This document shows, one piece after another, positions 647 to 36,346 of a stretch of 64,000 bases of DNA; position 1 is the first letter of the stretch; every line of letters begins with the position of its first letter. Location: contig CAWHBN010000001.1 in NCBI GenBank assembly GCA_963827705.1, positions 41,973 to 105,972 on the forward strand, given 5' to 3'. A program made the position numbers and the translations under genes. This DNA comes from an uncultured Actinomycetes bacterium. GTDB taxonomy: Bacteria; Actinomycetota; Thermoleophilia; Gaiellales; Gaiellaceae. Under the pieces are notes generated by a model that was not told the DNA's origin, searched no databases, and saw only the letters and a list, made by a program, of their open reading frames with translations.

Positions 647-685
647 CTCTCTCCAGACAGGTGAGACTCGGCACAAGGGTCAGGG

Positions 686-1936
686 TTGGAGGTGATAAGG
701 AGCGCTAATCGCCCTGTCGAGGACGCGAGCGTCCTCTTCGTCGGCGCCGGACGGCATCAGCGCCGCGCGCTCGTGCGCCTTCGAGAGCTGGGCGTGCGGG
801 TCGTCGCGGTCGACCGGAACTCCGAGGCCCCCGGCCTGGCAATCGCCGACGTCGGTGAGGTCGTCGATCTCCTCGACGTCCCTGCCGTCATCGAGGCCGG
901 GCGCCGGCACGGCGTCGACGGAGTGATGACGTACGCGGCGGATCGTGCGGTCCCGGTCGTCGCCGCCGTCGCCGAGGCACTCGACCTGCCGGGGATCGGG
1001 AGCGACACGGCACACCTGATGACGAACAAGATCGCGATGCGCCGCCAGCTCGCCGACGCCGGCGTCCCGCAGCCGCGCTTCGCCGCCGTCCGGACCTTGC
1101 ACGAGGCACGCGCCGCCGCAGGCGCTGTCGGGTTTCCCGCCGTACTCAAGCCCGCGGACTCGGCCGGCCAGCGCGGCCTCTTCCTGTGCGAGTCGATCGG
1201 CGATGTGGAGCGCCACCTGCACGCCTCGCTCGTACAGTCGACCGAGCAGGAGGCGATTCTCGAGAGCTACCACGGGGGTAAGGAGGTGAACGGCCTGCTC
1301 GTCGTGCTCGACGGCGAGCCCACGGTCGTGACGCTGTCCGACCGGCGCCGGCCGCCCGGCCGCGGCTTCGGGGTCGCGATCGCGCACGTCTATCCCTCGA
1401 CGCTCTTCGGAGACGCACTCGAGGAAGTCCGCCGAACCGGTGTCCATACGGTCAAGGCGCTCGGGCTCCGCGAGGGCGTGGCCTATCCGCAGGTGCTCTG
1501 GAGCGAGGACGGCGTCGCGCGGCTGATCGAGGTCGCGGCGCGCATCCCTGCAGGCCAGATGGACTCGGTGGCGCGCTACGGCGTCGGCGTCGACCTGATC
1601 GACATCGCGCTCCTCCAGGCGCTCGGTCGTCCGGTGCCTGATGAGATGGTCGCGGCGAAGATGGAGCAGCCGATGGCGATCTCGTTCCTCACGGCGGAGC
1701 CCGGGCCGCTTCCGACCGGCAAGCTCGTCCGCTTCAGCGGCCTCGAGCGGGTGCGCGCGTTCCCCGGCGTCGTCGAGGCGGAGCTCTACTTCCAGGACGG
1801 CGAGACGATCCGGCCCGTGCAGCTCGACGGCGACCGACGCGGCTACGTGATCGCCTTGGGCGGAACGAACCTCGAGGCTGTCGAGCGGGCCGAGTCTGCG
1901 GCGCGGCTGCTCGACGTCGAGGTCGAGGCGGCGTGA
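686..1936 (+). CDS. ATP-grasp domain protein (carboxylate-amine ligase type)
   Basis: 416-aa ORF. It has an N-terminal Rossmann-like VLFVGAG, then MTNKIAMRRQL...GFPAVLKPADSAGQRG...IEVAARIPAG. The start (TTG 686 or GTG 692) is uncertain. Confidence 0.8.
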   Translation: MEVIRSANRPVEDASVLFVGAGRHQRRALVRLRELGVRVVAVDRNSEAPGLAIADVGEVVDLLDVPAVIEAGRRHGVDGVMTYAADRAVPVVAAVAEALDLPGIGSDTAHLMTNKIAMRRQLADAGVPQPRFAAVRTLHEARAAAGAVGFPAVLKPADSAGQRGLFLCESIGDVERHLHASLVQSTEQEAILESYHGGKEVNGLLVVLDGEPTVVTLSDRRRPPGRGFGVAIAHVYPSTLFGDALEEVRRTGVHTVKALGLREGVAYPQVLWSEDGVARLIEVAARIPAGQMDSVARYGVGVDLIDIALLQALGRPVPDEMVAAKMEQPMAISFLTAEPGPLPTGKLVRFSGLERVRAFPGVVEAELYFQDGETIRPVQLDGDRRGYVIALGGTNLEAVERAESAARLLDVEVEAA

Positions 1937-2574
1937 GCTGCACGTTCTCCATGGCGCACTACCGCGAGCTGCTCGAGGCCGCCCACGAGGGCGGACACCG
2001 CTGGACGGCCTTCGGCCAGGAGCCGCAGCCGGGCGACCTCTTCCTGCGGCACGACGTCGACCTCTCGCTCGACGCGGCGATCGCGATGGCCGAGGTGGAG
2101 GCCGAGCTCGGCGCGCGGGCCACGTACTTCCTGATGACGCAGTCGGTCTTCTACAACCTCGGCTCGTCCGAGGGTCGCCGCGCGCTGAACCGGCTCCGCG
2201 AGCTCGAGCACGGAGTCGGGCTCCACGCCGTCTGGCCCAACGTCGAGCTCGACGACCGCTTCGACGCGGTGGTCGCATGGCACAACCCGGACGCCGACTA
2301 CATGTCGGAGCCGGTCGACGGCGCCGTCAACGTGATGCAGCGGCCGTTCTTCGACCCTGACCACTACCGCTCGGATTCGAACCAGCACTGGCAGCACGGC
2401 TGCCCGCACGAGGATCTCCGCCAGGGCAGGTTCGAGTGGCTCCAGCTCCTGATCCACCCGGAGATCTGGGTCTACCCGGGCGAGACGATGGGCGAGACGA
2501 TGACGGCGATGCTCGACGCGGAGCGCGACCGGCGCCGCGCCCTGCTCGCGGAAGACCGCATCGACCTCTCGTGA
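1933..2574 (+). CDS. Polysaccharide deacetylase-like protein (NodB-related family common in glycan loci)
   Basis: 213-aa ORF whose start overlaps the upstream stop by 4 nt. Motifs LRHDVDLSLDAAIAMAEVEAELGARATYF and HGVGLH resemble the RHDVD...YF...GHEIGLH pattern. Confidence 0.55.
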   Translation: MSCTFSMAHYRELLEAAHEGGHRWTAFGQEPQPGDLFLRHDVDLSLDAAIAMAEVEAELGARATYFLMTQSVFYNLGSSEGRRALNRLRELEHGVGLHAVWPNVELDDRFDAVVAWHNPDADYMSEPVDGAVNVMQRPFFDPDHYRSDSNQHWQHGCPHEDLRQGRFEWLQLLIHPEIWVYPGETMGETMTAMLDAERDRRRALLAEDRIDLS

Positions 2575-24613: not shown

Positions 24614-25576
24614 CTAACTCCGATATAGAGAGTTCTGTACTTCTCTCGTCGCCACGAAGACCTGGGAGCCTTCCTCGAGCTCGAGCTGCTCGGCTTCCGA
24701 CTTCGTCATCTGCACCCACACCTCTCGGCCGTCCTCGAGCGCGAGGTCGGCGCGCACCTCGAAGCCGAGGTGGACGACCCGCTCGACCGTCGCACGCTCG
24801 GCCGACCCGTTCGGCTCGCGCCGCACCTCGATGTCGTGCGGGCGGACGAGCTCCTCGCCGAAGCTCGAGACGGGCCCGATGAACGTCATCACGAACTCGT
24901 TCGCCGGCCGCTCGTAGAGGTCGCGCGCACCGCCGATCTGCTCGACACGGCCCTCGTTCATGAGGACGATCTGGTCGGCGATCTCCATCGCCTCTTCCTG
25001 GTCGTGCGTCACGAAAATGGTCGTCACGTGCACCTCGTCGTGGAGGCGGCGGAGCCAGGCGCGGAGCTCCTTGCGAACACGCGCGTCGAGGGCGCCGAAC
25101 GGCTCGTCCAGGAGCAGCACCTTCGGCTCGACGGCGAGCGCCCGTGCGAGCGCCATCCGCTGTCGCTGTCCGCCCGAGAGCTGCGCCGGATAGCGCTTCG
25201 CGAGCCCGCCGAGCTGGACGAGGTCGAGGAGCTCGCCGACGCGCTCCTTGATCTCCGCCTTCGGCCGCTTGCGGATGGTCAGGCCAAACGCGACGTTGTC
25301 CCAGACGGTCATGTGCTTGAAGGCCGCGTAGTGCTGGAAGACGAAGCCGACGCCCCGCTTCTGCGGCGAGACGGTCGTCGCCTCCTCGCCCGAGATGAAG
25401 ACCTCGCCGGCGTCGGGCTGCTCGAGCCCGGCGATCACGCGAAGCAGCGTCGACTTCCCGCTGCCGCTCGGCCCGAGCAGCGCTGTCAGCGAGCCACTCT
25501 CGACCTCGACGGACACGTTGTCGATCGCCGTGAAGTCGCCGAAGCACTTCGAGACGTTGCGGACCTCGATCGCCAT
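24614..25576 (-). CDS. cysA: Sulfate/thiosulfate ABC transporter ATP-binding protein
   Basis: [15 protein letters not shown]...[12 protein letters not shown]...LSGGQRQR...LLLDEP, with a CysA-type C-terminal regulatory domain. The start overlaps the cysW stop (TGATG). Confidence 0.9.
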
Positions 25577-26364
25577 CAGTGCTCGTCCTTTCGGAGCAGA
25601 GTCATCGCCAGCAGCGTCATGACGGCAAGGAGCGCGAGCACGACCGAAGCCGCGTACGCATCCTGCACCTCGAACGCCTGGAACCGCTCCTCGACGTGGA
25701 GCGTCATCGTCTCCGTGCGGCCGGCGATCCGCCCGGAGACGACGCTGACCGCGCCGAACTCGCCGAGCGCACGAGCGGTGGTCAGGACAACGCCATAGGC
25801 AACTCCCCAGCGGATCGCGGGAAGCGTCACGCGCCAGAAGGTCTGCCAAGAGGACGCACCGAGCGTGGCGGAGGCCTCCTCCTGCTCGTCGCCGATCTCA
25901 CGCAGGACGGGGACCACCTCACGGACGACGAACGGCAGCGAGACGAAGATGGTCGCCAGCACCATCCCGGGCAGCGCAAAGATCACCTGGAAGCCGTTGT
26001 CGATCAGCCAGCCGCCCCACCAGCCCTGGCGTCCGTACACGAGAACCAGCGCGAGCCCGACGACGACCGGCGACAGAGCCAGCGGCAGGTCCACGATGCT
26101 GTTCACGAGCCCGTGGCCGCGGAACTTCCGGCGAACGATCGCGAGCGCGCACATGATCCCGAAGACGGTGTTCAGAGGCACCGCGATCAACGCGATCAAG
26201 ATCGTCAGCCAGAGGGCGTGCAACGCCTCCGGCGTCGTGATCGCCGCGAAGAACTCTGCAATCCCGTCCTCGAACGCACGGAACACGACCAGCCCGACCG
26301 GGACGATGAGCAGCGCGGCGAGGTAGCCGAGCGCGGCGAATCTCAGGACGTACCTAGAGGTCAT
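25576..26364 (-). CDS. cysW: Sulfate ABC transporter permease
   Basis: 262-aa ORF with the EAA-loop region [22 protein letters not shown] and [15 protein letters not shown]. Confidence 0.9.
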
Positions 26365-27176
26365 GCCTCGTGGCCCAGCGGCGCACGCCGCCGATCGCGA
26401 GCAGAACTCCGAGCGAGGCGACGAGCAGGACGACGGACACGGCGGCCGCGCCGGTGACGTTGTCGCTCTCGATCTGCCCGAAGATGTAGACGGACGCGAC
26501 CTCGGTCTTGAACGGCTGGTTGCCCGGAGATCAGGACGACGGCGCCGAACTCACCGAGCGCTCGGGCGAACCCGAGCGCCGTCCCCGACAGGATCGCCGG
26601 GAACAGGTTCGGGAAGACGACTCGCCTGAAGGTCTGGAGCGGTGTGGCGCCGAGCGAATGCGCCGCCTCCTCCATGTCGCGGTCGAGCTCGAGCAGCACC
26701 GGCTGCACGGTGCGGACGACGAACGGCAGGGTCACGAACAGCAGCGCGAGAACGAGCGCCCCCGTCGTGTACGCGACGTTCACTCCGATCGGGCTCCGCG
26801 GGCCGTAGAGCGCGAGCAGCGTCAGGCCGGCGACGATCGTCGGAAGCGCGAAGGGCAGGTCGATTAGCGCGTTCACCAGGCTCTTGCCGCGGAACGAGTC
26901 GCGGACGAGCACCCAGGCGGTCACCGTCCCGGCGACGGCATTGATCAGCACCACGCCGAGCGAGATCGCGAAGGTGAGCTTGAGCGCAGCGACCGCCTGC
27001 GGCTCGGTGATCGCATCCCAGAAAGCCTGTGCTCCGCCCTCCATGGAGCGGAGCACGAGCGCTGCGAGCGGGATCAGGACGATCACGCTCAGGTATCCGG
27101 TCGTCACGCCCAGGCTGAGCGTGGCTTCACGCCGCCTCCGGAGCGGTTTGGCGACCGGTTGCGCGACGCTACTCAA
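26354..27176 (-). pseudogene. cysT: Sulfate ABC transporter permease CysT interrupted by a +1 frameshift (extra G in a G-run at 26523-26525)
   Basis: The listed ORF ends in an Arg-rich tail (..VLISGQPAVQDRGRVRLHLRADRERQRHRRG). Shifting one base after ISG restores [55 protein letters not shown]. This is collinear with the E. coli CysU C-terminus as I recall it and ends at TAG 26354. Confidence 0.8.
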
Positions 27177-28170
27177 GGGCTGCGCCGACCTCCCTCTGAA
27201 TGCCCGCCATGATCCCGTCCTCGCGGTCGAAGAACGTCTTCTGCACCTCGTCCCAGCCGCCAACGTCCTCGATCGTGAAGAGGTCGGGCGGGGTAGGGAA
27301 CTGGAACTCGCCGGCGACCGCCTCGTTCACCGGCCGGTAGCCCGCCTTGCCGAAGACGCGTTGCGCCTCCTCCCCGCGGATGTAGTCGAGGAAGCCAGCC
27401 GCCTGTTCAGGCGTGTCCTTCGTCACCGCGACGGGGTTCTCGATCAGGATCGTCTGGTCCGGCACGACGTAGTCGAGGTCCTCGCCCTTCTCCTGGGCCA
27501 GGATCGCCTCGTTCTCGTACGCGAGCAGGACGTCGCCCTTCCCGCCGGTGAAGGTCTGGAGCGATTCGCGCGCGCTCTTGTCCTGGACGGAGACATGCTT
27601 GAAGAGCTCGCCGAGGTACTCGACTGCCTGCTCGTGCGTCTTGCCGAGCTTCCTCTGCGCGCCGTAGGCCGCCATGACGTTCCACCGCGCTCCGCCCGAG
27701 GTGAACGGGTTGGGCTCGATCACCTCGACGCCGTCCTTGACCAGGTCGTCCCAGGTCTTGATGCCCTTCGGGTTCCCTTTCCGGACTGCGAAGACGACGA
27801 CCGAGTTCGTGACCATGCCGTTGTACTGGTCATCGGCCCAGGTCTCGGCGACCTGACCGGACTCGACGAGCCGATCGACGTCCGGCGCGAGCGAGAAGGC
27901 GACGACGTCGGCCGGCAGTCCTTGCTCGACGGCGCGGCTCTGCTCGCCCGAGCTGCCGTACGACTCGTCGAACGAGACGCCCTTGCCGGCGTCCGTCTTG
28001 GCGAAGTCCTTCGTCAGCTGCGCATAGACCTCGCGCGGTGTCGAGTACGCGACGAGCGTCAGCTTCGCGCCGTCGGAACCGGCTTCCGCCGACTCCTCCG
28101 ACGTCCCGCCGCACGCCGTGACCAACGCGGCTACGGCAATGGCGGCGAGTGCCAGAATAAGAGAACGCAT
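27169..28170 (-). CDS. sbp: Sulfate/thiosulfate-binding lipoprotein
   Basis: ATG 28170 follows AGGAGG. Lipobox LVTAC. Sbp-like sequence LVAYSTPREVY...GSSGEQSRAV..G..ADV... Confidence 0.9.
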   Translation of the reverse strand: MRSLILALAAIAVAALVTACGGTSEESAEAGSDGAKLTLVAYSTPREVYAQLTKDFAKTDAGKGVSFDESYGSSGEQSRAVEQGLPADVVAFSLAPDVDRLVESGQVAETWADDQYNGMVTNSVVVFAVRKGNPKGIKTWDDLVKDGVEVIEPNPFTSGGARWNVMAAYGAQRKLGKTHEQAVEYLGELFKHVSVQDKSARESLQTFTGGKGDVLLAYENEAILAQEKGEDLDYVVPDQTILIENPVAVTKDTPEQAAGFLDYIRGEEAQRVFGKAGYRPVNEAVAGEFQFPTPPDLFTIEDVGGWDEVQKTFFDREDGIMAGIQREVGAALE

Positions 28171-28191
28171 GGGGCCTCCTGAGATTGGAAA

Positions 28192-28212
28192 CGCTAATTT
28201 CACGGATTAGCG
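28192..28212. promoter_or_regulatory. Palindrome CGCTAAT-N7-ATTAGCG upstream of sbp (shared motif, copy 1)
   Basis: 7-bp perfect arms, 22 nt upstream of the sbp ATG and 2 nt downstream of a candidate -10 element. The same GCTAAT-N7-ATTAGC occurs at 34064-34082. Confidence 0.5.
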
Positions 28213-28214
28213 GT

Positions 28215-28243
28215 TTCTATCCGGGAGGCCTCTGCGCTGTCAA
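28215..28243 (-). promoter_or_regulatory. Candidate promoter for sbp-cysTWA
   Basis: On the minus strand: TTGACA (28243-28238), a 17-nt spacer, then ATAGAA (28220-28215). Confidence 0.35.
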
Positions 28244-28249
28244 GTCGCA

Positions 28250-29398
28250 TCAGGCGCGGTAAGCCTCGATCAGCACCTCGGCGACCTCGGGCCGCGAGAA
28301 CTCCACGGGCGGGACCTCGCCGTTCGTCAGCATCTCCCGCACCTTCGTTCCCGACAGGAACACGTGGTCGTCGCCGCCGTGCGGGCAGGTCTTCGGCGAG
28401 ACCATCGCCTCGCAGCGCTTGCAGTAGACGGCGTGCTCGAAGAACATCGGCTCGATGTCGAGCTCGTGCGGCTCGAACTCGTCGAAGATCTGCTGCGCGT
28501 CGTAGGAGCCGTAGTAGTCGCCGACGCCGGCGTGGTCGCGGCCGACGATGAAGTGCGAGCAGCCGTAGTTCTTGCGGCAGATCGCGTGCCAGATCGCCTC
28601 CCGCGGGCCCGCGTAGCGCATGGCCGCCGGGAAGGCGGAGACGACGACGCGGTCGGCCGGGTAGTAGTTGTCGACGAGCACGCGGTAGCAGTCGACGCGC
28701 GTCTTGGCCGGAACGTCGTCCTGCTTCGTGTCGCCGACGAGCGGGTGGATCAGAAGGCCGTCGACGGTCTCGAGCGCCGTCTTCGTCAGGTACTCGTGCG
28801 CCCGGTGGATCGGGTTGCGGGTCTGGAAGCCGACGATGCGCTTCCAGCCACGCTTCTCGAACTCCGCGCGGGTCTCCGCGGGATCGAGCGCGAGCTCCGG
28901 GAAAGGCGGCACGGCCCGCTCGAAGACCGTGACCCGGCCGGCGAGGTAGAGCGGCTTCTGCGCGTAGAGGCGCGCCACTCCCGGGTGGGCGTCGTCGGTG
29001 GTGCGGAAGCACTGCTCGGCCTCACGTTCCTTGTCGTACTCGTAGGTCTCCTCGACCTCGAGCACCGCGACGAGGCGGCCCGATTCGTCGGCGAGCGCCA
29101 CGCGATCGCCCTCGGGCGCCTTGTCGACTGCAAGGCAGACCGGCAGTGCCCACGGGAGGCCGCTCACGAGGCGCATCTCCTCGACCACGCGCTCGTAGTC
29201 CTCTCGGCCCATGAAGCCCTCCAGCGGGCTGAGAGCGCCCGAGGCGAGCATGTCCAGGTCGGACAGCTCGCGGGACGTCAGCGTGACGACCTCGAGCTGC
29301 TCGACGTCGTCCGGCCGCTCGCCGGTGCGGTCGACGAGCTCCCCGCCGTGTGGCTCGATCAGACCTGTCCCAGTGACTGTCACTGAGGCGTGGCTCAT
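28250..29398 (-). CDS. sat: Sulfate adenylyltransferase (ATP sulfurylase)
   Basis: 382-aa ORF with [18 protein letters not shown] and [10 protein letters not shown]. Confidence 0.92.
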
Positions 29399-31947: not shown

Positions 31948-32850
31948 CTATGCCTCCCGGTCGTACTCGACGGAGCCGTCGGCGCCGATATGCGCGGAGG
32001 CGCGCCGCGCCGCCCAGCACTGGTAGTTGACGGCCACCGGGTTCAGCGTCATGTGCGTGTCGGCATGCTCGATGTGGCACTGAAGGACAGTGACGTCGCC
32101 GCCGAGCCCCATCGGGCCGATCCCGGTCTCGTTCAGCAGCCGGTAGAGGTCATCCTCCAGCTCCGCGACCAGCGGGTCGGGGTTCCGGGTGCCGACGGGC
32201 CTGGCGATGGCCTCTTTCGCGAGGTGCATCGCGTAATCGGCCGAGCCGCCGATCCCCACTCCGACGATTCCGGGCGGGCAGGGCTTCCCGCCGGCGCCGA
32301 CGATCGACTCGAGCACGAACTGCTTGATCCCCTTCACGCCGTCGGCGGGGACGCACATCTTGAGGAAGCTCATGTTCTCCGAGCCCGATCCCTTCGGGAC
32401 AGACTTGACGTCGAGGCCGTCCCAGTCCGAGACGAAGTCCCAGTGGACGATCGGGACCCTGTAGCCGACGTTCGGCCCCGTGTTCTCGCGCGTGAGCGTG
32501 TGGACGATGTTCGAGCGCAAGGGGTGGTCGAGCGTCGCGCGCATCGTCCCGTCGTAGAGCGCCTGGTAGATCCGGGCGGGGTGGAGCGGAAAGTGCTCGC
32601 CGACCCGGCAGTAGTAAACGGCGATCCCGGTGTCCTGGCAGACCAGGTTGTTCTCGCGTTCTGCCACCTGGACGTTCTTGAGGATCGTCTGGAGGACGCG
32701 CTGACCGGGAATGGACGTCTCCTTTCGGGACGCGTCCGCCAGGGCGTCGCGGAGGTCCTGGGGGATGTCCTTCAGCGCCCAGACGTAGAGGTGCGCCGCG
32801 GCATCCTCGACAGATTGCTGCAGCGTACCTAGGGCGCGTAGCGCGCTCAT
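31948..32850 (-). CDS. Fe-S hydro-lyase alpha subunit (class I fumarate hydratase / tartrate dehydratase alpha-type)
   Basis: ATG 32850 overlaps the flavoprotein stop (ATGA). Motifs LVCQDTGIAVYY, VPKGSGSENMS and PPGIVGVGIGGSAD. Confidence 0.8.
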   Translation of the reverse strand: MSALRALGTLQQSVEDAAAHLYVWALKDIPQDLRDALADASRKETSIPGQRVLQTILKNVQVAERENNLVCQDTGIAVYYCRVGEHFPLHPARIYQALYDGTMRATLDHPLRSNIVHTLTRENTGPNVGYRVPIVHWDFVSDWDGLDVKSVPKGSGSENMSFLKMCVPADGVKGIKQFVLESIVGAGGKPCPPGIVGVGIGGSADYAMHLAKEAIARPVGTRNPDPLVAELEDDLYRLLNETGIGPMGLGGDVTVLQCHIEHADTHMTLNPVAVNYQCWAARRASAHIGADGSVEYDREA

Positions 32851-34061
32851 GCCGCCGCCTTCTCCGCCGCCGCCTTGCCGGCGCGACGGCCGAACACCGT
32901 GCACTCGAGCAGCGAGTTGCCCATCATCCGGTTCCTTCCGTGCGTGCCGCCGGCGATCTCGCCGGCCGCGTAGACCCCTTCCAACGTCGTCTCTCCCTGC
33001 TCGTCGATCACGAGCCCGCCGTTCTGGTAGTGGAGCACCGGGTAGGTCAGGATCCGCTCCTTTAGCGGGTCGATCCCGCCTGCGCGGTAGCGGCGGAGCA
33101 TGTACGGGAGCGATACCTCCGCGTCAGCCTCAGCGATCCGGGTCGTGTCGAGGTAGACCGCAGGGCGGCCGTCCTCGGTCTCGACGCCCCTCCCGTTCTC
33201 GACCTCGTCGAAGATCGCCTGAGAGACCTCGTCGCGCGGCCCGAGGGAGTCCGTGAACTCCTCGCCGTCGGCGTTGAGCAGGACCGCGCCGTAGGCACGC
33301 GTGGTCTCCGGGATCGAGTAGCCCTGCATGTTCTCGGGCCAGGCGCCGCCGTTCGGGTGGTACTGGAGCGCGTCAAGGTCCCGCGACTCGGCACCCAGAG
33401 CAAGCGCGAACTGCGTCACCTCGCCCGTCGCTCCCGGATGGTTCGTCGAGAGCTCGCCGCGCTCCTTCGCCTCGCGGAAGCAGCGGCCGCCTGCGGCGAG
33501 GACGACGGTCGCGGCCTCGATGTCGTGTTCCCCGCACCGCGCTAACCAGCCGTTCTCGATCTCCTTGAGCTCCGTCAACGGCGACTTCGGAAACGCGGTG
33601 CCGGAGCCCGACTCGAACGCGTCCTTCAGCGCAGACGTAATCGCGAGACCGGTCCGGTCGCCGACCTGGAGCAGACGCTTGCGAGTCGCGCCGCCGCAGC
33701 GTGCGAGCCGGTAGCCGCCGTTCTCGCGCGTGAACTGGACGCCGAGCTCCTCGAGCCAGTGGATCGCCGGCGGCGCCTCCGACGTGAGGATCTCGACGAG
33801 GCGGCGATCGGCGGTTTCGTGCGAGCTATGCCAGACGTCCTCGGCGTGGATCTCTGGGGTGTCGTCCTCGCCGAACGCGGCCTGGATCCCGCCCTGCGCC
33901 TTGGCCGAATTGCAGGACTGAAGCGCGCCCTTGGTTGCCAGTGCGACCCGCGCGCCGGCCCGCTCGGCGGAGACGGCGGCCGCGAGGCCGGAGGCCCCCG
34001 ATCCGATCACGAGCACGTCGAAAGAGAGCTTGCCGCCCACGACTGCGATCCTACCACCCAT
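32847..34061 (-). CDS. Short (about 400 aa) FAD_binding_2 flavoprotein related to fumarate reductase/succinate dehydrogenase flavoprotein and L-aspartate oxidase
   Basis: Motifs DVLVIGSGASGLAAA, SAKAQGGI (no His at the covalent-FAD position), QYHPNG (compare QFHPTG) and GRNRMMGNSLLE (compare ANRLGSNSLLE). It lacks the C-terminal helical domain. The start may be GTG about 21 nt downstream. Confidence 0.8.
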   Translation of the reverse strand: MGGRIAVVGGKLSFDVLVIGSGASGLAAAVSAERAGARVALATKGALQSCNSAKAQGGIQAAFGEDDTPEIHAEDVWHSSHETADRRLVEILTSEAPPAIHWLEELGVQFTRENGGYRLARCGGATRKRLLQVGDRTGLAITSALKDAFESGSGTAFPKSPLTELKEIENGWLARCGEHDIEAATVVLAAGGRCFREAKERGELSTNHPGATGEVTQFALALGAESRDLDALQYHPNGGAWPENMQGYSIPETTRAYGAVLLNADGEEFTDSLGPRDEVSQAIFDEVENGRGVETEDGRPAVYLDTTRIAEADAEVSLPYMLRRYRAGGIDPLKERILTYPVLHYQNGGLVIDEQGETTLEGVYAAGEIAGGTHGRNRMMGNSLLECTVFGRRAGKAAAEKAAA

Positions 34062-34063
34062 GC

Positions 34064-34082
34064 GCTAATCGCACGTATTAGC
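34064..34082. promoter_or_regulatory. Palindrome GCTAAT-N7-ATTAGC upstream of the flavoprotein gene (shared motif, copy 2)
   Basis: 6-bp perfect arms, 2 nt downstream of the A/T hexamer TAATGA on the minus strand. The geometry matches the sbp copy. Confidence 0.5.
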
Positions 34083-34119
34083 ATTCATTATTCTGCTCGC
34101 TCTTGCCGATACATGTTCC

Positions 34120-34407
34120 ATGGTCAAGACGATCGGCCTCGTCGGGATCCTCTGCGCTGCGGCAATCCTCGGGATGACCTGGGCGCGCCAGAGCTTCCAG
34201 GCGACGGAGAAAGCGCCCGCTGCCATCCTCCAGGCGGCTGCGACGGTCCTCGAGTTCAATCACCGGACGACCGGCACATACGACGCAGGGAAGGTCGAAA
34301 CCGTCACGCTCGCCTGGGCGGACCAGTCCCGGTACTGCATCGAGTTCGGCGGCCAGCACATCGCCGGTCCCGGCGGCACGCCGACCACCGGCGACTGTCC
34401 GCGCTAA
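34120..34407 (+). CDS. Small membrane-anchored or secreted hypothetical protein
   Basis: 95-aa ORF with an N-terminal hydrophobic segment MVKTIGLVGILCAAAILGMTWA, divergent from the sulfur operon. Coding status is plausible but unproven. Confidence 0.5.
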   Translation: MVKTIGLVGILCAAAILGMTWARQSFQATEKAPAAILQAAATVLEFNHRTTGTYDAGKVETVTLAWADQSRYCIEFGGQHIAGPGGTPTTGDCPR

Positions 34408-35354
34408 TAGATCGACTGGAACAGCTCGGCGATCTCGGCCGGTGACGCAGGCCTCGGGTTCGCCTTTGCCCCAGCGCGCTGGGCGGTCGCCTCGGCGACG
34501 ACGTCCAGCTCCTGCTCAGGGACGTCGAAGTCGCGCAGCCGCTCGAAGCCCCCGAGCCGCGCCAGCTCCTCCACGCGATCCGCCGCGTGGTCGGCGCCGA
34601 TCGACTTCCCGAAATCGTCGATCGCCTCCGTCGCAACCGGCTCGTTGAACCGGAGCGCGGGCGGCAGGCACAGCGCGTTCATCGCGCCGTGCGGAAGGCC
34701 GTAGCGGCCGCCGAGTGCCTGCGCCATCGCGTGGCCGAGACAGAGGCCGGAAAGCCCGAGCGCTTCGCCCGCGCGTGCGGCTCCTTTCAGCAGGGTCTTC
34801 CGAGGGCCGAGCGCCCCGAGGTTCTCGAGCACGGCGGGTAGCGAGCCGTTGATCAGCTCTGCGCCTTCGTGCGCGGCCCGATCGGACTCGGGGCTCCGTG
34901 CCGGGTGGTACAACGCCTCGGCGGCGTGGGCCAGCGCGTTGAGCGCGGTGCCCGCCGTCTCCTCCCGGAGCAGGTCGAGCGTCAGCTCCGGGTCGTAGAC
35001 GATCGCCGCGAGCTTCGCGTCGCCTCCGCCGCCGACCATCCGCTTGTCGGGGTCGCGAACGCCGTAGAACGGCGTCCACTCCGAGCCCGAGTACGTCGTC
35101 GGAACCGAGACGAGCGGCAAACCGCTCGCCGCCGACGCCGCCTTGGCCGTGTCGATGGCGCTGCCGCCGCCCACCGCGAGCACGCCGTCGACGCCCTCCG
35201 GCACCTCGATCCGGTGCGACGGGATCTCCTCCCAGCGTGCCGCCGCGGGAAGTTCCAGTGGGCTCCACCGCGGGCTTGCGACCAGAAAAGGCCGCTCGAT
35301 CCCCAACTCGCGGAGGACGCCCGGTAGCTCCTCCAGGCCCCAGCGGACGATCAC
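34404..35354 (-). CDS. Iron-containing alcohol dehydrogenase family protein (maleylacetate reductase-like)
   Basis: 316-aa ORF with AVGGGSAIDTAKA and the His-rich site LCLGHAMAQALGGRYGLPHG. Confidence 0.8.
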   Translation of the reverse strand: MIVRWGLEELPGVLRELGIERPFLVASPRWSPLELPAAARWEEIPSHRIEVPEGVDGVLAVGGGSAIDTAKAASAASGLPLVSVPTTYSGSEWTPFYGVRDPDKRMVGGGGDAKLAAIVYDPELTLDLLREETAGTALNALAHAAEALYHPARSPESDRAAHEGAELINGSLPAVLENLGALGPRKTLLKGAARAGEALGLSGLCLGHAMAQALGGRYGLPHGAMNALCLPPALRFNEPVATEAIDDFGKSIGADHAADRVEELARLGGFERLRDFDVPEQELDVVAEATAQRAGAKANPRPASPAEIAELFQSIY

Positions 35355-36241
35355 GGGATTCGCTCGCGCGCGAAGGCGACGAACGCCTCCGCGACCCTGC
35401 TCGGCGTCCGGCCGGTCGAGCGGACCAGCGAGATCTCGCGAGTCGGCGCCAGCCCCTCGACTGTCGCAGCCGCGAGGGTGCCCGCCGCCAGCTCCGGCTC
35501 GATCGAGGACCTGGAGATGAACGTGACGCCGTGACCGGCGGCAACCGCCGCTTTCACCGACTCCTGCAGCCCCAGCTCGAGCTTCACGTCGAGGTCGCGG
35601 AGCCGCACGCCGCCGGCCCGCAGCTCGTCCTCGACCATCTGCCTGACCCCGGCTCCCTCCTGCATGAGGATCACCGCCTCGGCGCGAAGATCGTCGAGCT
35701 TCACGGTCGCGCCGGCGAGCTTGTGGCCCGGCGGGACGGCGAGCACGATCTGGTCCTGGAAGAACGGCTCGAAGGTCACGGCTCGATGGCGTGGCGCCGC
35801 CCCGACGACGCCGAGCTCGAGCCGCCGCTCCGCCACGAGGTCGATCACGTGCAGCGTGTCGTTGACCGAGAGCGAGATCGCGACGTCAGGGTTCTCGCGC
35901 TGGAACTCGCAGAGCAGGAGCGGAAGGACGGTCGCGCCGGGGCCGGTCGAGCAGCCGATCTCGAGCCGGCCGCGCAGTTCGTCGCTCTCGCCGGAGACCT
36001 CCTCCAGCAGCTGCTGCTCGAGCGCCAGCATCCGCTGAGCGCTTCGGTACAGCCGCTGGCCGGCCTCGGTCGGCTCGACCCGCCGCCCGGAGCGGTCGAG
36101 GAGCCGCTCGCCGAGCCGCTTCTCGAGCGAACGGATCTGGAGACTGACCGCAGGCTGGGTGACGCCGAGCTGCTCGGCCGCGAGCGAGAAGCTCTTCCGG
36201 TCGACGACGGCGCAGAAGGCCGCAAGCTGACGAGTGTCCAT
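35351..36241 (-). CDS. LysR-family transcriptional regulator
   Basis: MDTRQLAAFCAVVDRKSFSLAAEQLGVTQPAVSLQIRSLE is a textbook LysR helix-turn-helix. The 3' end overlaps the Fe-ADH start by 4 nt. Confidence 0.9.
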   Translation of the reverse strand: MDTRQLAAFCAVVDRKSFSLAAEQLGVTQPAVSLQIRSLEKRLGERLLDRSGRRVEPTEAGQRLYRSAQRMLALEQQLLEEVSGESDELRGRLEIGCSTGPGATVLPLLLCEFQRENPDVAISLSVNDTLHVIDLVAERRLELGVVGAAPRHRAVTFEPFFQDQIVLAVPPGHKLAGATVKLDDLRAEAVILMQEGAGVRQMVEDELRAGGVRLRDLDVKLELGLQESVKAAVAAGHGVTFISRSSIEPELAAGTLAAATVEGLAPTREISLVRSTGRTPSRVAEAFVAFARERIP

Positions 36242-36346
36242 AAGTCAGCATGATACGTAGGCCAAAACTCATAAGGGTTGAGGTTTGGGAGAATCAGGTA
36301 CGAGAGACACATGCGGCCGTTCTTTTTAGGGGAAAGGGGAGACATC

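What the first reader, a model, noticed from the sequence alone, without database searches (positions are those of the whole stretch)
28192..28212. Identical GCTAAT-N7-ATTAGC palindrome in front of both sulfur transcription units (second copy at 34064-34082)
- The sbp copy (28192-28212) reads CGCTAAT-ttcacgg-ATTAGCG. It lies 22 nt upstream of the sbp ATG.
- The second copy (34064-34082) reads GCTAAT-cgcacgt-ATTAGC. It lies 3 nt upstream of the listed ATG of the flavoprotein gene, or about 24 nt upstream of an alternative GTG.
- Both sit 2 nt downstream of an A/T-rich hexamer on the coding strand (ATAGAA and TAATGA). The sbp copy also has a perfect TTGACA 17 nt further up.
- Two 6-7-bp-arm AT-rich palindromes with the same spacing are unlikely by chance in 70% GC DNA.

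This places transport and the comA-containing unit in one regulon. The position overlapping the transcription start fits a repressor operator, although a conserved 5'-UTR hairpin (6-7 bp stem, 7-nt loop) is also possible. The nearest candidate regulator is the LysR gene at 35351-36241.
Basis: seen in the sequence. Interest (0 to 1): 0.6.

Follow-up and report, generated by a model that had tools for sequence, protein, structure and literature searches.

The report
Shared operator of a sulfur regulon
The two identical palindromes are real, occur nowhere else in this soil actinobacterium's genome, and are conserved across its whole family in front of the same two sulfur operons, so they are almost certainly the DNA docking site of one regulator (probably the neighbouring LysR protein): a solid but ordinary kind of gene switch.

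Summary
Observation confirmed. GCTAAT-N7-ATTAGC occurs exactly twice in the 2.98-Mb genome (a Gaiellaceae MAG), at 28193-28211 and 34064-34082. No other site exists, even with relaxed patterns.

The element is conserved across Gaiellaceae, and in one genome of another family of the order. Almost every genomic copy lies directly upstream of the flavoprotein-fumarase-comA-cysH-cysC-sat operon or of sbp-cysTWA.

It behaves as a DNA site, not an RNA stem. The arms are fixed in sequence, and the common CTTAT/ATTAG variant is uncompensated in 18 cases against 3 compensated.

The flavoprotein gene starts at GTG 34040 on a leaderless promoter (TGn-TAnnnT, start codon 6-10 nt later). The site lies a fixed 10 nt upstream of that -10, at about -41 to -23. 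At sbp it covers about -4 to +15.

The palindrome is the inner part of a larger array, ATAA-N7-TWAT-N7-ATTA(-N7-nWAT), which reads as two adjacent T-N11-A boxes. The syntenic LysR gene carries an invariant ATAA-N7-TTAT box over its own start in 46 of 46 species.

Best reading: operator of the cluster's LysR-type regulator, probably repressive.

Extra finding: the sbp copy is the apex of a conserved ~58-nt hairpin that pairs the Shine-Dalgarno sequence with the promoter spacer.

No binding or expression experiment exists.

The parts
28192..28212 (-). Palindrome copy 1 (CGCTAAT-N7-ATTAGCG), between the sat stop (28250) and the sbp ATG (28170). It spans about -4 to +15 of the predicted sbp promoter.
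   Evidence: Conserved at the orthologous position in 13 same-genus loci and in other genera.
34064..34082 (-). Palindrome copy 2 (GCTAAT-N7-ATTAGC), upstream of the flavoprotein gene. It spans about -41 to -23 of the leaderless promoter, so its 7-nt spacer lies where a -35 hexamer would be.
   Evidence: A recognisable site is present in 75 of 80 Gaiellaceae species loci. Spacing to the -10 is exactly 10 nt in 54 of 75 loci and 8-10 nt in 67 of 75.
34077..34091 (-). Distal box at the flavoprotein promoter. In gene orientation it reads ATAA-tgaatgc-TAAT (T-N11-A type). It shares its proximal half with the left arm of the palindrome.
   Evidence: In the profile of 66 distinct loci, ATAA is as conserved as the palindrome arms and sits at a fixed distance. 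It appears on the + strand as ATTA-N7-TTAT at 34077.
34048..34056 (-). Extended -10 of the flavoprotein operon promoter: TGG-TAGGAT in gene orientation.
   Evidence: TAnnnT is present in all 75 loci and is preceded by TGn in 64 of 75.
34038..34040 (-). True start codon (GTG) of the flavoprotein gene, 7 nt after the -10, implying a leaderless mRNA.
   Evidence: A start codon lies 6-10 nt after the -10 in 70 of 74 loci (GTG 56, ATG 14, TTG 4). RNA contigs identical to the window stop at 34038, 34029 and 34026. The ATG at 34061 is not conserved.
28238..28243 (-). TTGACA, the predicted -35 of the sbp promoter.
   Evidence: Invariant in the same-genus sbp loci with a palindrome (TTGACG in two other-genus loci). 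Also present in genera whose sbp leader lacks the palindrome.
28214..28220 (-). GATAGAA, the -10-like element of sbp (TAGAAA lies 18 nt after TTGACA). It would also be the first half of the distal box ATAG-N7-TAAT.
   Evidence: Conserved in all same-genus sbp loci. The homologous element is TAG(T/G)AAT in other genera. The generic sigma-70 scan does not call it, because T is missing at position 6.
28184..28198 (-). Proximal box at sbp: ATTA-gcgtttc-CAAT. Its last AT is nearly invariant in relatives.
   Evidence: Profile of 18 sbp sites.
28173..28230 (-). Extended inverted repeat with the palindrome at its apex. In RNA, GGCCUCC (28230-28224, the promoter spacer) pairs with the Shine-Dalgarno region GGAGGCC (28179-28173).
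   Evidence: MFE -37.3 kcal/mol against -25.0 +/- 3.6 for shuffles (z -3.4) over 28150-28250. Thirteen of 14 relatives give the same single long hairpin and the 14th (L153) a related one with the apex kept. Duplex energy of the flanks alone is -23.5 against -11.7 +/- 3.4 for a shuffled right arm, with covarying pairs.
28175..28180 (-). Shine-Dalgarno sequence AGGAGG of sbp.
35351..36241 (-). LysR-type regulator gene, the candidate binder.
   Evidence: Pfam HTH_1 plus LysR_substrate. NCBIfam NF040786 at 262.6 bits against a cutoff of 250. Syntenic with the operon in at least 60 of 80 species.
36240..36254 (-). Box over the LysR gene's own -10 and start codon: ATCA-tgctgac-TTAT(G) in gene orientation.
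   Evidence: The consensus ATAA(K)-N5-CTTATG is conserved in 46 species. A-13, T-12, A-10, T-2 and T-1 are invariant in 46 of 46, and C-3 in 44 of 46.
32847..34040 (-). First gene of the regulated operon (FAD_binding_2 flavoprotein). It is followed by fumarase-like alpha and beta subunits, comA, cysH, cysC and sat, down to 28250.
24614..28170 (-). The second regulated unit, sbp-cysT-cysW-cysA.

Best explanation
**What it is.** The 19-bp palindrome is a double-stranded DNA operator. It is the conserved core of a composite site made of AT-rich half-sites spaced 11 bp apart:
- flavoprotein promoter: ATAA-N7-T(A/T)AT-N7-ATTA;
- sbp: ATAG-N7-TAAT-N7-ATTA-N7-CAAT.

**Who binds it.** The most likely binder is a tetramer of the LysR-type regulator encoded at 35351-36241. 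That gene travels with the operon throughout Gaiellaceae, and a single ATAA-N7-TTAT box lies over its own promoter and start codon.

**What binding would do.**
- At the flavoprotein operon, the array covers about -50 to -23 of a leaderless, -35-less, extended -10 promoter.
- At sbp, it covers the -10 to about +25.
- At lysR, it covers -13 to +2.

All three positions would exclude RNA polymerase. The simplest model is therefore repression, including autorepression, relieved by an unidentified small-molecule signal of sulfur status. This would couple sulfate import to the sulfate-activation/ComA operon.

**Second layer at sbp only.** The same DNA lies at the tip of a ~58-nt hairpin that can form only in read-through RNA coming from sat. 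It pairs the sbp ribosome-binding site with upstream sequence. This should silence or terminate read-through, so that sbp expression depends on its own operator-controlled promoter.

**Shown:** uniqueness, conservation, positional specificity, lack of covariation in the arms, promoter geometry, synteny, the box at lysR, and the conserved extended pairing.
**Inferred:** the identity of the binder, the sign of regulation, the effector, and the function of the hairpin.
For: **Uniqueness.** There are two sites in 2.98 Mb and none elsewhere under relaxed patterns.

**Positional specificity.**
- In the same genus, 27 loci carry the motif, all upstream of flavo or sbp. Genomes often hold two copies 6-7 kb apart.
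- In 25 other Gaiellaceae genomes, 19 exact CTWAT-N7-ATTAG sites were found: 13 at flavo, 6 at sbp, none elsewhere. The control pattern gave 2 hits.
- The composite ATAA-N7-TWAT-N7-ATTA occurs in 32 of 77 Gaiellaceae genomes, against 0 control hits there. Of 25 retrieved loci, 21 are at flavo.
- It also occurs with the same -10/GTG spacing in a genome of another family of the order.

**DNA rather than RNA.**
- The AT/TA inner pairs are invariant in 71 of 71 distinct sites.
- Position 4/16 is T.T in 18 sites, against 3 compensated T-A.
- All five inner pairs can form in only 36 of 71 sites.
- The flavo region has no fold beyond shuffles (z +0.30).
- There is no Rfam match.

**Promoter geometry.** 10-nt spacing to TGn-TAnnnT and a start codon 6-10 nt later. 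RNA contigs of the identical strain end at 34038, 34029 and 34026.

**LysR link.**
- Synteny.
- An invariant box at its own start in 46 species.
- Half-sites also lie at the promoter of the 54%-identical ortholog in the other family, which is not directly adjacent to the operon there (about 11 kb beyond its sat end).

**Precedent.** The LysR-type repressor CcpC uses boxes ATAA/TTAT/TATT as a full dyad plus a half dyad (PMC8514465). T-N11-A and 4-N7-4 boxes are the LysR-family norm (PMC11495319).
Against: - No experiment shows binding, the transcription starts or the regulatory response.
- Classical LysR-type sites have the strong dyad near -65 and a divergent regulator gene. Here the boxes centre near -43 and -21, and the regulator is co-directional and 1.3 kb upstream.
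- Read as a dimer site, the palindrome itself is T-N13-A, not T-N11-A.
- The fourth half-site is absent at the flavoprotein promoter.
- At sbp, the outer half-sites could be conserved because of the -10 and the RNA pairing rather than protein contacts.
- In some genomes LysR is not within 4-5 kb of the site.
- The sbp -10 lacks the canonical T at position 6.
- One RNA contig of a 92%-identical relative runs across the whole flavo-orf95 intergenic region. Transcription over the flavo copy is therefore not excluded.
- RNA evidence comes from assembled contigs, which cannot show absence.
Confidence: 0.6

Rival explanations
1. The site is a DNA operator, but of a different transcription factor encoded elsewhere (for example a TetR-, MarR-, Rrf2- or ArsR-type dimer that reads CTAAT-N7-ATTAG as a simple palindrome). 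The neighbouring LysR would then regulate something else, such as the divergent 615-aa gene.
For: - The best-conserved unit is a clean 5-N7-5 palindrome, typical of many dimeric repressors.
- LysR is divergent from orf615, the classical LysR arrangement.
- LysR is missing within 4-5 kb of the site in some loci.
- The site positions are unusual for the LysR family.
Against: - No other regulator gene recurs near the cluster.
- The regulon is tiny and local.
- ATAA, 7 nt upstream of the left arm, is as conserved as the arms.
- The same ATAA-N7-TTAT box covers the LysR start in 46 of 46 species.
Confidence: 0.22
2. The binder is the same LysR protein, but it acts as a classical ligand-dependent activator of the flavoprotein operon by the 'sliding dimer' mechanism. 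Without ligand a dimer sits on the palindrome region over -35. With ligand it shifts one helical turn to the ATAA-N7-TWAT box centred near -43 and recruits RNA polymerase to a promoter that has no -35 element.
For: - The promoter lacks a -35 and the site keeps a rigid 10-nt distance from the -10, which is more typical of activators.
- The two overlapping dyads are centred 11 bp apart.
- Most LysR-type regulators are activators (PMC11495319).
Against: - The sbp copy lies across the predicted transcription start, where activation is not possible.
- An extended -10 promoter does not need a -35 or an activator.
- No upstream anchoring dyad near -65 is conserved at a fixed distance.
Confidence: 0.25
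3. The 19-mer acts mainly as an RNA hairpin, such as a 5'-UTR stabiliser, protein-binding stem-loop or terminator, in both transcripts.
For: - The sbp copy folds at -9 kcal/mol (z -4.6) and is the tip of a conserved long hairpin with covarying lower stem.
- A relative's RNA contig spans sat to sbp, so the sbp copy is transcribed at least in read-through RNA.
Against: - The arms never covary, and the frequent CTTAT/ATTAG variant breaks the short stem.
- The flavo copy lies upstream of the conserved -10 and leaderless start. It is not part of the local minimum-energy fold, and the region scores z +0.30.
- There is no U-tract and no Rfam family.
- An RNA role cannot explain the conserved unpaired ATAA at flavo or the box at the lysR start.
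Confidence: 0.07

Closest known systems
LysR-type regulator binding sites (regulatory site plus activation sites, T-N11-A boxes such as BenM ATAC-N7-GTAT)
   Same: - 4-N7-4 dyads with T-N11-A.
- Two boxes centred about 22 bp apart on one face of the helix.
- A better-conserved box next to a half-conserved one.
- A box over the regulator's own promoter.
- The regulator gene is linked to its target operon (PMC11495319).
   Different: - The boxes centre near -43 and -21 (flavo) or over -10 to +25 (sbp), instead of near -65 and -35.
- The regulator is co-directional with the target rather than divergent.
- The target promoter is leaderless.
CcpC of Bacillus (LysR-type repressor of citB/citZ)
   Same: - Box letters ATAA / TTAT / TATT.
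- A full dyad plus a half dyad, both needed.
- Two dimers bend the DNA and block RNA polymerase.
- A metabolite relieves repression (PMC8514465).
   Different: - The CcpC dyads are at -66 and -27, further apart.
- The pathway (TCA cycle) and phylum differ.
- The protein here is not a CcpC ortholog. Its best NCBIfam model is NF040786, 'selenium metabolism-associated LysR'.
Sulfur-responsive LysR regulators YeiE (sulfite sensor), CysL and CysB/Cbl
   Same: - A LysR-family protein linked to sulfate or sulfite metabolism.
- YeiE regulatory-domain structures are the closest PDB match to the regulatory domain alone (E about 1e-19). For the full-length protein CbbR (5y2v) ranks first.
   Different: - Six of the eight YeiE sulfite-pocket residues are changed here: S97T, N126D, S127T, R191M, S195A, T197V.
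- E145, which discriminates sulfite from sulfate, is Gly here. Only S96 is kept (PMC8931317).
- The YeiE NCBIfam score of 164 is far below its cutoff of 480.
- No binding motif for YeiE turned up in term searches of the two papers consulted.
McbR / CysR / SsuR sulfur regulons of Corynebacterium (from memory, not tested here)
   Same: An actinobacterial palindromic operator in front of sulfate-assimilation and transport genes.
   Different: The regulator families differ (TetR, ROK), as does the motif (TAGAC-N6-GTCTA for McbR). No such regulator is linked to this cluster.

Membership tests
LysR-type regulator operator | Imperfect dyad containing T-N11-A | tested here: met
   ATAA-N7-TWAT (flavo), ATAG-N7-TAAT and ATTA-N7-CAAT (sbp) and ATAA-N7-TTAT (lysR) all place T at position 2 and A at position 14. 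The 19-mer read on its own is T-N13-A.
LysR-type regulator operator | A LysR-family gene genetically linked to the target | tested here: met
   The LysR-FeADH pair lies upstream of the operon in at least 60 of 80 species. It is co-directional, not divergent.
LysR-type regulator operator | Box over the regulator's own promoter (autoregulation) | tested here: met
   ATAA(K)-N5-CTTATG is conserved in 46 species (A-13, T-12, A-10, T-2 and T-1 invariant in 46 of 46), while nothing further upstream is conserved. This is motif evidence only.
LysR-type regulator operator | High-affinity site near -65 with activation sites near -35 | tested here: not met
   The boxes centre at about -43 and -21 of the predicted flavo promoter, and over -10 to +25 at sbp.
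LysR-type regulator operator | Direct binding of the protein to the DNA | not testable with these tools
   This needs EMSA or footprinting.
Structured cis-regulatory RNA (hairpin or riboswitch) | Base pairs maintained by compensatory changes | tested here: not met
   For the 19-mer there are 18 uncompensated T.T against 3 compensated, and all five inner pairs form in only 36 of 71 sites. For the longer sbp hairpin the lower stem does covary, but RNAalifold on the MAFFT alignment recovered only 10 pairs.
Structured cis-regulatory RNA (hairpin or riboswitch) | Match to a curated RNA family | tested here: not met
   No relevant Rfam hit appears, even at E up to 10.
Intrinsic terminator | GC-rich stem followed by a U-tract on the transcribed strand | tested here: not met
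   No U-tract follows the stem on the minus strand, and the tail is not conserved. A U-independent terminator cannot be excluded.
YeiE-type sulfite-sensing LysR regulator | Conserved sulfite pocket (S96 S97 N126 S127 E145 R191 S195 T197) | tested here: not met
   The aligned residues are S T D T G M A V (residue list from PMC8931317).
Leaderless actinobacterial promoter | TAnnnT -10 (often TGn-extended) 6-8 nt upstream of the start codon, with no Shine-Dalgarno sequence | tested here: met
   75 of 75 loci have TAnnnT, 64 of 75 have TGn, and the start codon follows after 6-10 nt in 70 of 74. RNA contigs end at the GTG. No 5'-end mapping exists.

The most novel reading that the evidence does not exclude
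One stretch of DNA works at two levels. As duplex DNA it is the operator of a LysR-type repressor. As RNA, made only when transcription reads through from the upstream operon, it is the tip of a 58-nt hairpin that hides the sbp ribosome-binding site, or terminates transcription. The sbp promoter lies inside the left arm of that hairpin. Promoter-derived mRNA therefore lacks the inhibitory arm and is translated, whereas read-through mRNA is silent. This would be a built-in insulator between two co-regulated operons.
Probability: 0.3. Interest if true: 0.55.

Novelty: new member of a known kind. Interest (0 to 1): 0.4.

Why it matters
- **Testable regulon.** It defines the first regulon that can be tested for the uncultured soil family Gaiellaceae, with exact half-sites to mutate and one candidate protein to purify.
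- **Pathway context.** It shows that sulfate uptake and the unusual ComA/fumarase-like/flavoprotein operon are controlled together. This supports the view that the operon is a dedicated sulfate-to-sulfonate route rather than a chance gene neighbourhood.
- **Annotation.** It corrects the start of the flavoprotein gene (GTG 34040) and shows that the operon and the regulator gene are probably leaderless. This matters for annotation and for heterologous expression.
- **Ligand discovery.** The regulator's ligand would probably reveal the pathway's signal or end-product.
- **Kind of element.** As a type of element (an operator for a local LysR-type regulator) it is ordinary.

Tried and rejected
- **Rfam scan** of 24-37 kb at E up to 10: nothing relevant.
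- **Generic sigma-70 and terminator scan:** it called no promoter at either site. Its only terminator-like hit at the palindrome is on the non-coding strand.
- **Metatranscriptome contigs**:
  - They suggest a 5' end at the GTG for the flavoprotein gene.
  - They could not place the sbp start, because contigs break or read through.
  - Depth falls about 5- to 30-fold from sat to sbp, but this is confounded by the lower conservation of sbp.
- **RNAalifold on 14 sbp regions:** it recovered only the apex and GGAU/AUCC because indels misalign the outer stem. I therefore used per-sequence folds and flank duplex energies instead.
- **A fixed upstream anchoring dyad near -65 at flavo:** the conserved (T)ATCGGC block lies 13-30 nt from ATAA. 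It is therefore not at a fixed distance, and it probably belongs to the divergent small gene.
- **A full palindrome at the lysR promoter of this genome:** none was found, only ATCA-N7-TTAT plus a CTTAT near -35.
- **YeiE-like sulfite sensing:** rejected on pocket residues.
- **Chance or repeat-element origin:** rejected on genome-wide uniqueness and positional conservation.

Full report
**1. The observation**

Both copies are in the sequence as described. CGCTAAT-ttcacgg-ATTAGCG lies at 28192-28212 and GCTAAT-cgcacgt-ATTAGC at 34064-34082.

All genes concerned are on the minus strand:
- a FAD_binding_2 flavoprotein (32847-34061 as an ORF);
- fumarase-like alpha and beta subunits;
- ComA, PAPS/APS reductase, APS kinase and ATP sulfurylase (stop at 28250);
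- then, after 79 nt, sbp-cysT-cysW-cysA (28170 down to 24614).

Upstream lie a small divergent ORF (34120-34407, + strand), an Fe-ADH-like gene (34404-35354) and a LysR-family gene (35351-36241).

In the whole 2,975,205-bp assembly (69% GC, 90% complete) these are the only two matches with up to one mismatch. They are also the only matches to CTWAT-N7-ATWAG, TAAT-N7-ATTA or CTAAT-N6-8-ATTAG. Composition predicts about 0.014 exact matches per genome (my calculation).

**2. Organism and conservation**

Relatives of the flavoprotein are named Gaiellaceae / Thermoleophilia MAGs from soil.

- **Same genus.** Twenty-nine of 36 other genomes have the motif with up to 1 mismatch, often as two copies 6-7 kb apart. 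All 27 loci that carry the core motif place it either between the small ORF or Fe-ADH gene and the flavoprotein gene, or between sat and sbp.
- **Twenty-five further Gaiellaceae genomes.** Exact CTWAT-N7-ATTAG gave 19 sites in 16 genomes: 13 upstream of the flavoprotein gene, 6 upstream of sbp, none elsewhere. The control pattern gave 2 hits.
- **Species-level loci.** Of 80 species-level loci of the flavoprotein gene, 75 have a recognisable site.

The operator is therefore primarily that of the flavoprotein operon. sbp carries it in the lineages examined where sbp follows sat, and at sbp paralogs in a few others.

**3. DNA site or RNA stem?**

Across 71 distinct flavoprotein-gene sites the arms are fixed in sequence rather than in pairing:
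- the two innermost pairs are A-T and T-A in 71 of 71;
- position 4/16 is T.T in 18 sites, against 3 compensated T-A and 2 G-C;
- position 3/17 is A.A in 10 sites;
- all five inner pairs can form in only 36 of 71.

The promoter-proximal arm ATTAG is nearly invariant, and the distal arm is CT(A/T)AT. The region around the flavo copy folds no better than shuffles (z +0.30). Rfam has no match. This is the pattern of protein recognition of duplex DNA.

**4. Promoter geometry at the flavoprotein gene**

In 75 loci:
- a TAnnnT hexamer follows the 19-mer after exactly 10 nt in 54, and after 8-10 nt in 67;
- it is preceded by TGn in 64;
- a start codon follows 6-10 nt after the hexamer in 70 of 74 (GTG 56, ATG 14, TTG 4).

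In the window this reads TGG-TAGGAT (34056-34048), then 7 nt, then GTG 34040. The ATG at 34061 that the ORF list gives is not conserved.

This is the signature of an extended -10, leaderless actinobacterial promoter (interpretation from general knowledge of actinobacterial promoters). It puts the palindrome at about -41 to -23, with its spacer where a -35 would be.

Rhizosphere metatranscriptome contigs identical to the window stop at 34038, 34029 and 34026. A contig from a 92%-identical relative runs on through the intergenic region. This is suggestive, not proof, because contigs cannot show absence.

**5. Promoter geometry at sbp**

TTGACA-N18-TAG(A/T/G)A(A) is conserved upstream of sbp throughout the family. 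This includes genera whose leaders lack the palindrome. With TAGAAA at 28219-28214 as the -10, the palindrome spans about -4 to +15.

The hexamer lacks the canonical T at position 6, and the generic scan does not call it. The assignment rests on conservation.

**6. The palindrome is part of a larger array**

- Aligned on the 19-mer, 66 distinct flavoprotein-gene loci show ATAA, 7 nt upstream of T(A/T)AT, as conserved as the arms.
- The 18 sbp sites show a nearly invariant AT 7 nt downstream of ATTA, in C(A/T)AT.

The arrays are therefore ATAA-N7-TWAT-N7-ATTA (flavo) and ATAG-N7-TAAT-N7-ATTA-N7-CAAT (sbp). Half-sites are spaced 11 bp apart, giving two adjacent 15-bp boxes, each with T at position 2 and A at position 14.

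The composite pattern ATAA-N7-TWAT-N7-ATTA occurs in 32 of 77 Gaiellaceae genomes sampled, with 0 control hits there. Twenty-one of the 25 retrieved loci are at the flavoprotein gene.

In a genome of another family of the order, the same array precedes a 60%-identical flavoprotein-fumarase-comA-cysH-cysC-sat cluster, with the same 10-nt / TACGAT / 7-nt / GTG spacing.

**7. Link to the LysR gene**

- LysR-FeADH lies upstream of the operon in at least 60 of 80 species, and no other regulator gene recurs there.
- Upstream of the LysR start codon, nothing is conserved except ATAA(T/G)-N5-CTTATG. A-13, T-12, A-10, T-2 and T-1 are invariant in 46 of 46 species, and C-3 in 44 of 46. This is an ATAA-N7-TTAT box over the probable -10 and start of a leaderless gene. 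It is a perfect ATAAG-N5-CTTAT palindrome in several species.
- In this window it reads ATCA-N7-TTAT at 36240-36254, with a further CTTAT near -35.
- In the other family, the 54%-identical ortholog lies about 11 kb beyond the sat end of the operon and has CTTAT-N8-ATAAG in its promoter.
- The 4-N7-4, T-N11-A architecture is the LysR-family norm (PMC11495319).
- The LysR-type repressor CcpC uses the very boxes ATAA/TTAT/TATT, as a full dyad plus a half dyad (PMC8514465).
- The protein passes the NCBIfam model 'selenium metabolism-associated LysR' (262.6 bits against a cutoff of 250). YeiE regulatory-domain structures are the closest PDB match to its regulatory domain; for the full-length protein CbbR (5y2v) ranks first.
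- Seven of the eight YeiE sulfite-pocket residues differ, including Glu145 to Gly (PMC8931317). The ligand is therefore open.

**8. Mechanism proposed**

All three array positions overlap core promoter elements:
- flavo: about -50 to -23;
- sbp: -10 to about +25;
- lysR: -13 to +2.

The same protein at all three would exclude RNA polymerase. I therefore favour repression relieved by a sulfur-status ligand. Classical LysR activation at the flavoprotein promoter (the sliding-dimer mechanism) is a live alternative. The rigid 10-nt spacing argues for it, and the sbp position argues against it. Neither is tested.

**9. An extra layer at sbp**

- The sbp copy is the apex of a longer inverted repeat, 28173-28230. 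As RNA, the interval 28150-28250 folds at -37.3 kcal/mol, against -25.0 +/- 3.6 for shuffles.
- Thirteen of 14 relatives give the same single hairpin, and the 14th (L153) a related fold with the apex kept. In it the promoter spacer (GGCCUCC) pairs with the Shine-Dalgarno region (GGAGGCC).
- With the palindrome removed, the flanks still pair at -23.5 kcal/mol on average. A shuffled right arm gives -11.7 +/- 3.4, and non-cognate arms give -19.8.
- The paired segments covary: GGCC/GGCC, GGUC/GACC, GAGCC/GGCUC, GAAAC/GUUUC and GAAGUC/GACUUC.
- The left arm contains the sbp -10, so only RNA reading through from sat can form the hairpin. One relative's RNA contig does span sat to sbp.

I infer an insulator. 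Read-through RNA is terminated or untranslatable, whereas promoter-derived RNA has a free ribosome-binding site. The flavo copy has no such context, which again points to the shared 19-mer being a DNA element.

**10. Verdict**

The finding is real and well supported as a conserved operator that joins sulfate transport and the ComA operon in one small regulon. The binder is probably the cluster's LysR protein.

It is a new member of a known kind of element. The dual DNA/RNA use at sbp and the leaderless architecture are the less ordinary aspects.

Noticed in passing
window 29658: The extra base that frameshifts cysC (APS kinase) is absent from RNA contigs in all four metatranscriptome runs (depth with the base missing: 7.1 of 15.1, 5.25 of 5.25, 25.1 of 25.1 and 10.7 of 10.7). 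The frameshift may therefore be an assembly error or specific to this strain.
   Followed up: partly
window 34038-34061: The flavoprotein ORF is listed from ATG 34061, but relatives show the conserved start is GTG 34040. The gene, and also the LysR gene, appear leaderless.
   Followed up: yes
loci L113-L131 (sbp leaders of other Gaiellaceae genera): Where the palindrome is absent, the sbp leader carries a different conserved element, (T)CTA(C)-N7-9-(G)TAGACAAA. Several also have an anti-SD/SD hairpin (for example CUCUCCC...GGGAGAG, z about -3). This is probably a different operator or leader structure at the same position.
   Followed up: partly
window 695-709: This is the genome's only other ATWAG-N5-CTWAT dyad (ATAAGgagcgCTAAT). 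It lies at the 3' end of a 532-aa ORF (680-2278, minus strand), about 20 nt upstream of an ORF whose product contains MFRYLVRRL, the N-terminus typical of ABC permeases. About 0.5 such dyads are expected by chance, so it may be a further weak site or coincidence.
   Followed up: no
L191 4499-4535 (genome G271, another family of the class): A perfect four-half-site array, ATAA-N7-TAAT-N7-ATTA-N7-TTAT, lies upstream of a gene for a CCG (cysteine-rich, HdrB/LutA-like) domain protein. That genome has a 50%-identical LysR ortholog on another contig. The same regulator family may control other genes there.
   Followed up: partly
L181, L182 (genomes G528, G193 and G521, genus g98): Several of these genomes carry a second composite site. 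In L181 it lies upstream of a cysH paralog (47% identity to the window's CysH), and L182 carries the same type of site at a contig end. This suggests the regulon has expanded in that genus.
   Followed up: no
window 34095-34112 and relatives: A conserved block (T)ATCGGC lies 13-30 nt upstream of the ATAA half-site, wherever a small divergent membrane-protein gene (the orf95 family, in 25 loci) is present. It is probably part of that gene's promoter or leader.
   Followed up: no
window 35351-36241: The LysR regulatory domain aligns with YeiE, but Glu145, the residue that excludes sulfate in YeiE, is Gly here, and Arg191, Ser195 and Thr197 are Met, Ala and Val. The ligand is unlikely to be bound in the YeiE manner.
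   Followed up: partly
window 28016-28523: Summed RNA contig depth falls from 28-169 (sat 3' end) to 5-11 (intergenic region and sbp 5' end) in all four runs. This is compatible with termination at the long hairpin, but it is confounded by the lower sequence conservation of sbp.
   Followed up: partly
palindrome spacer, position 10 of the 19-mer: The central base is T in gene orientation in 54 of 71 flavo sites (A in 11) and in most sbp sites. This asymmetry is unexplained for a symmetric dimer site. It fits an oriented, asymmetric complex.
   Followed up: partly
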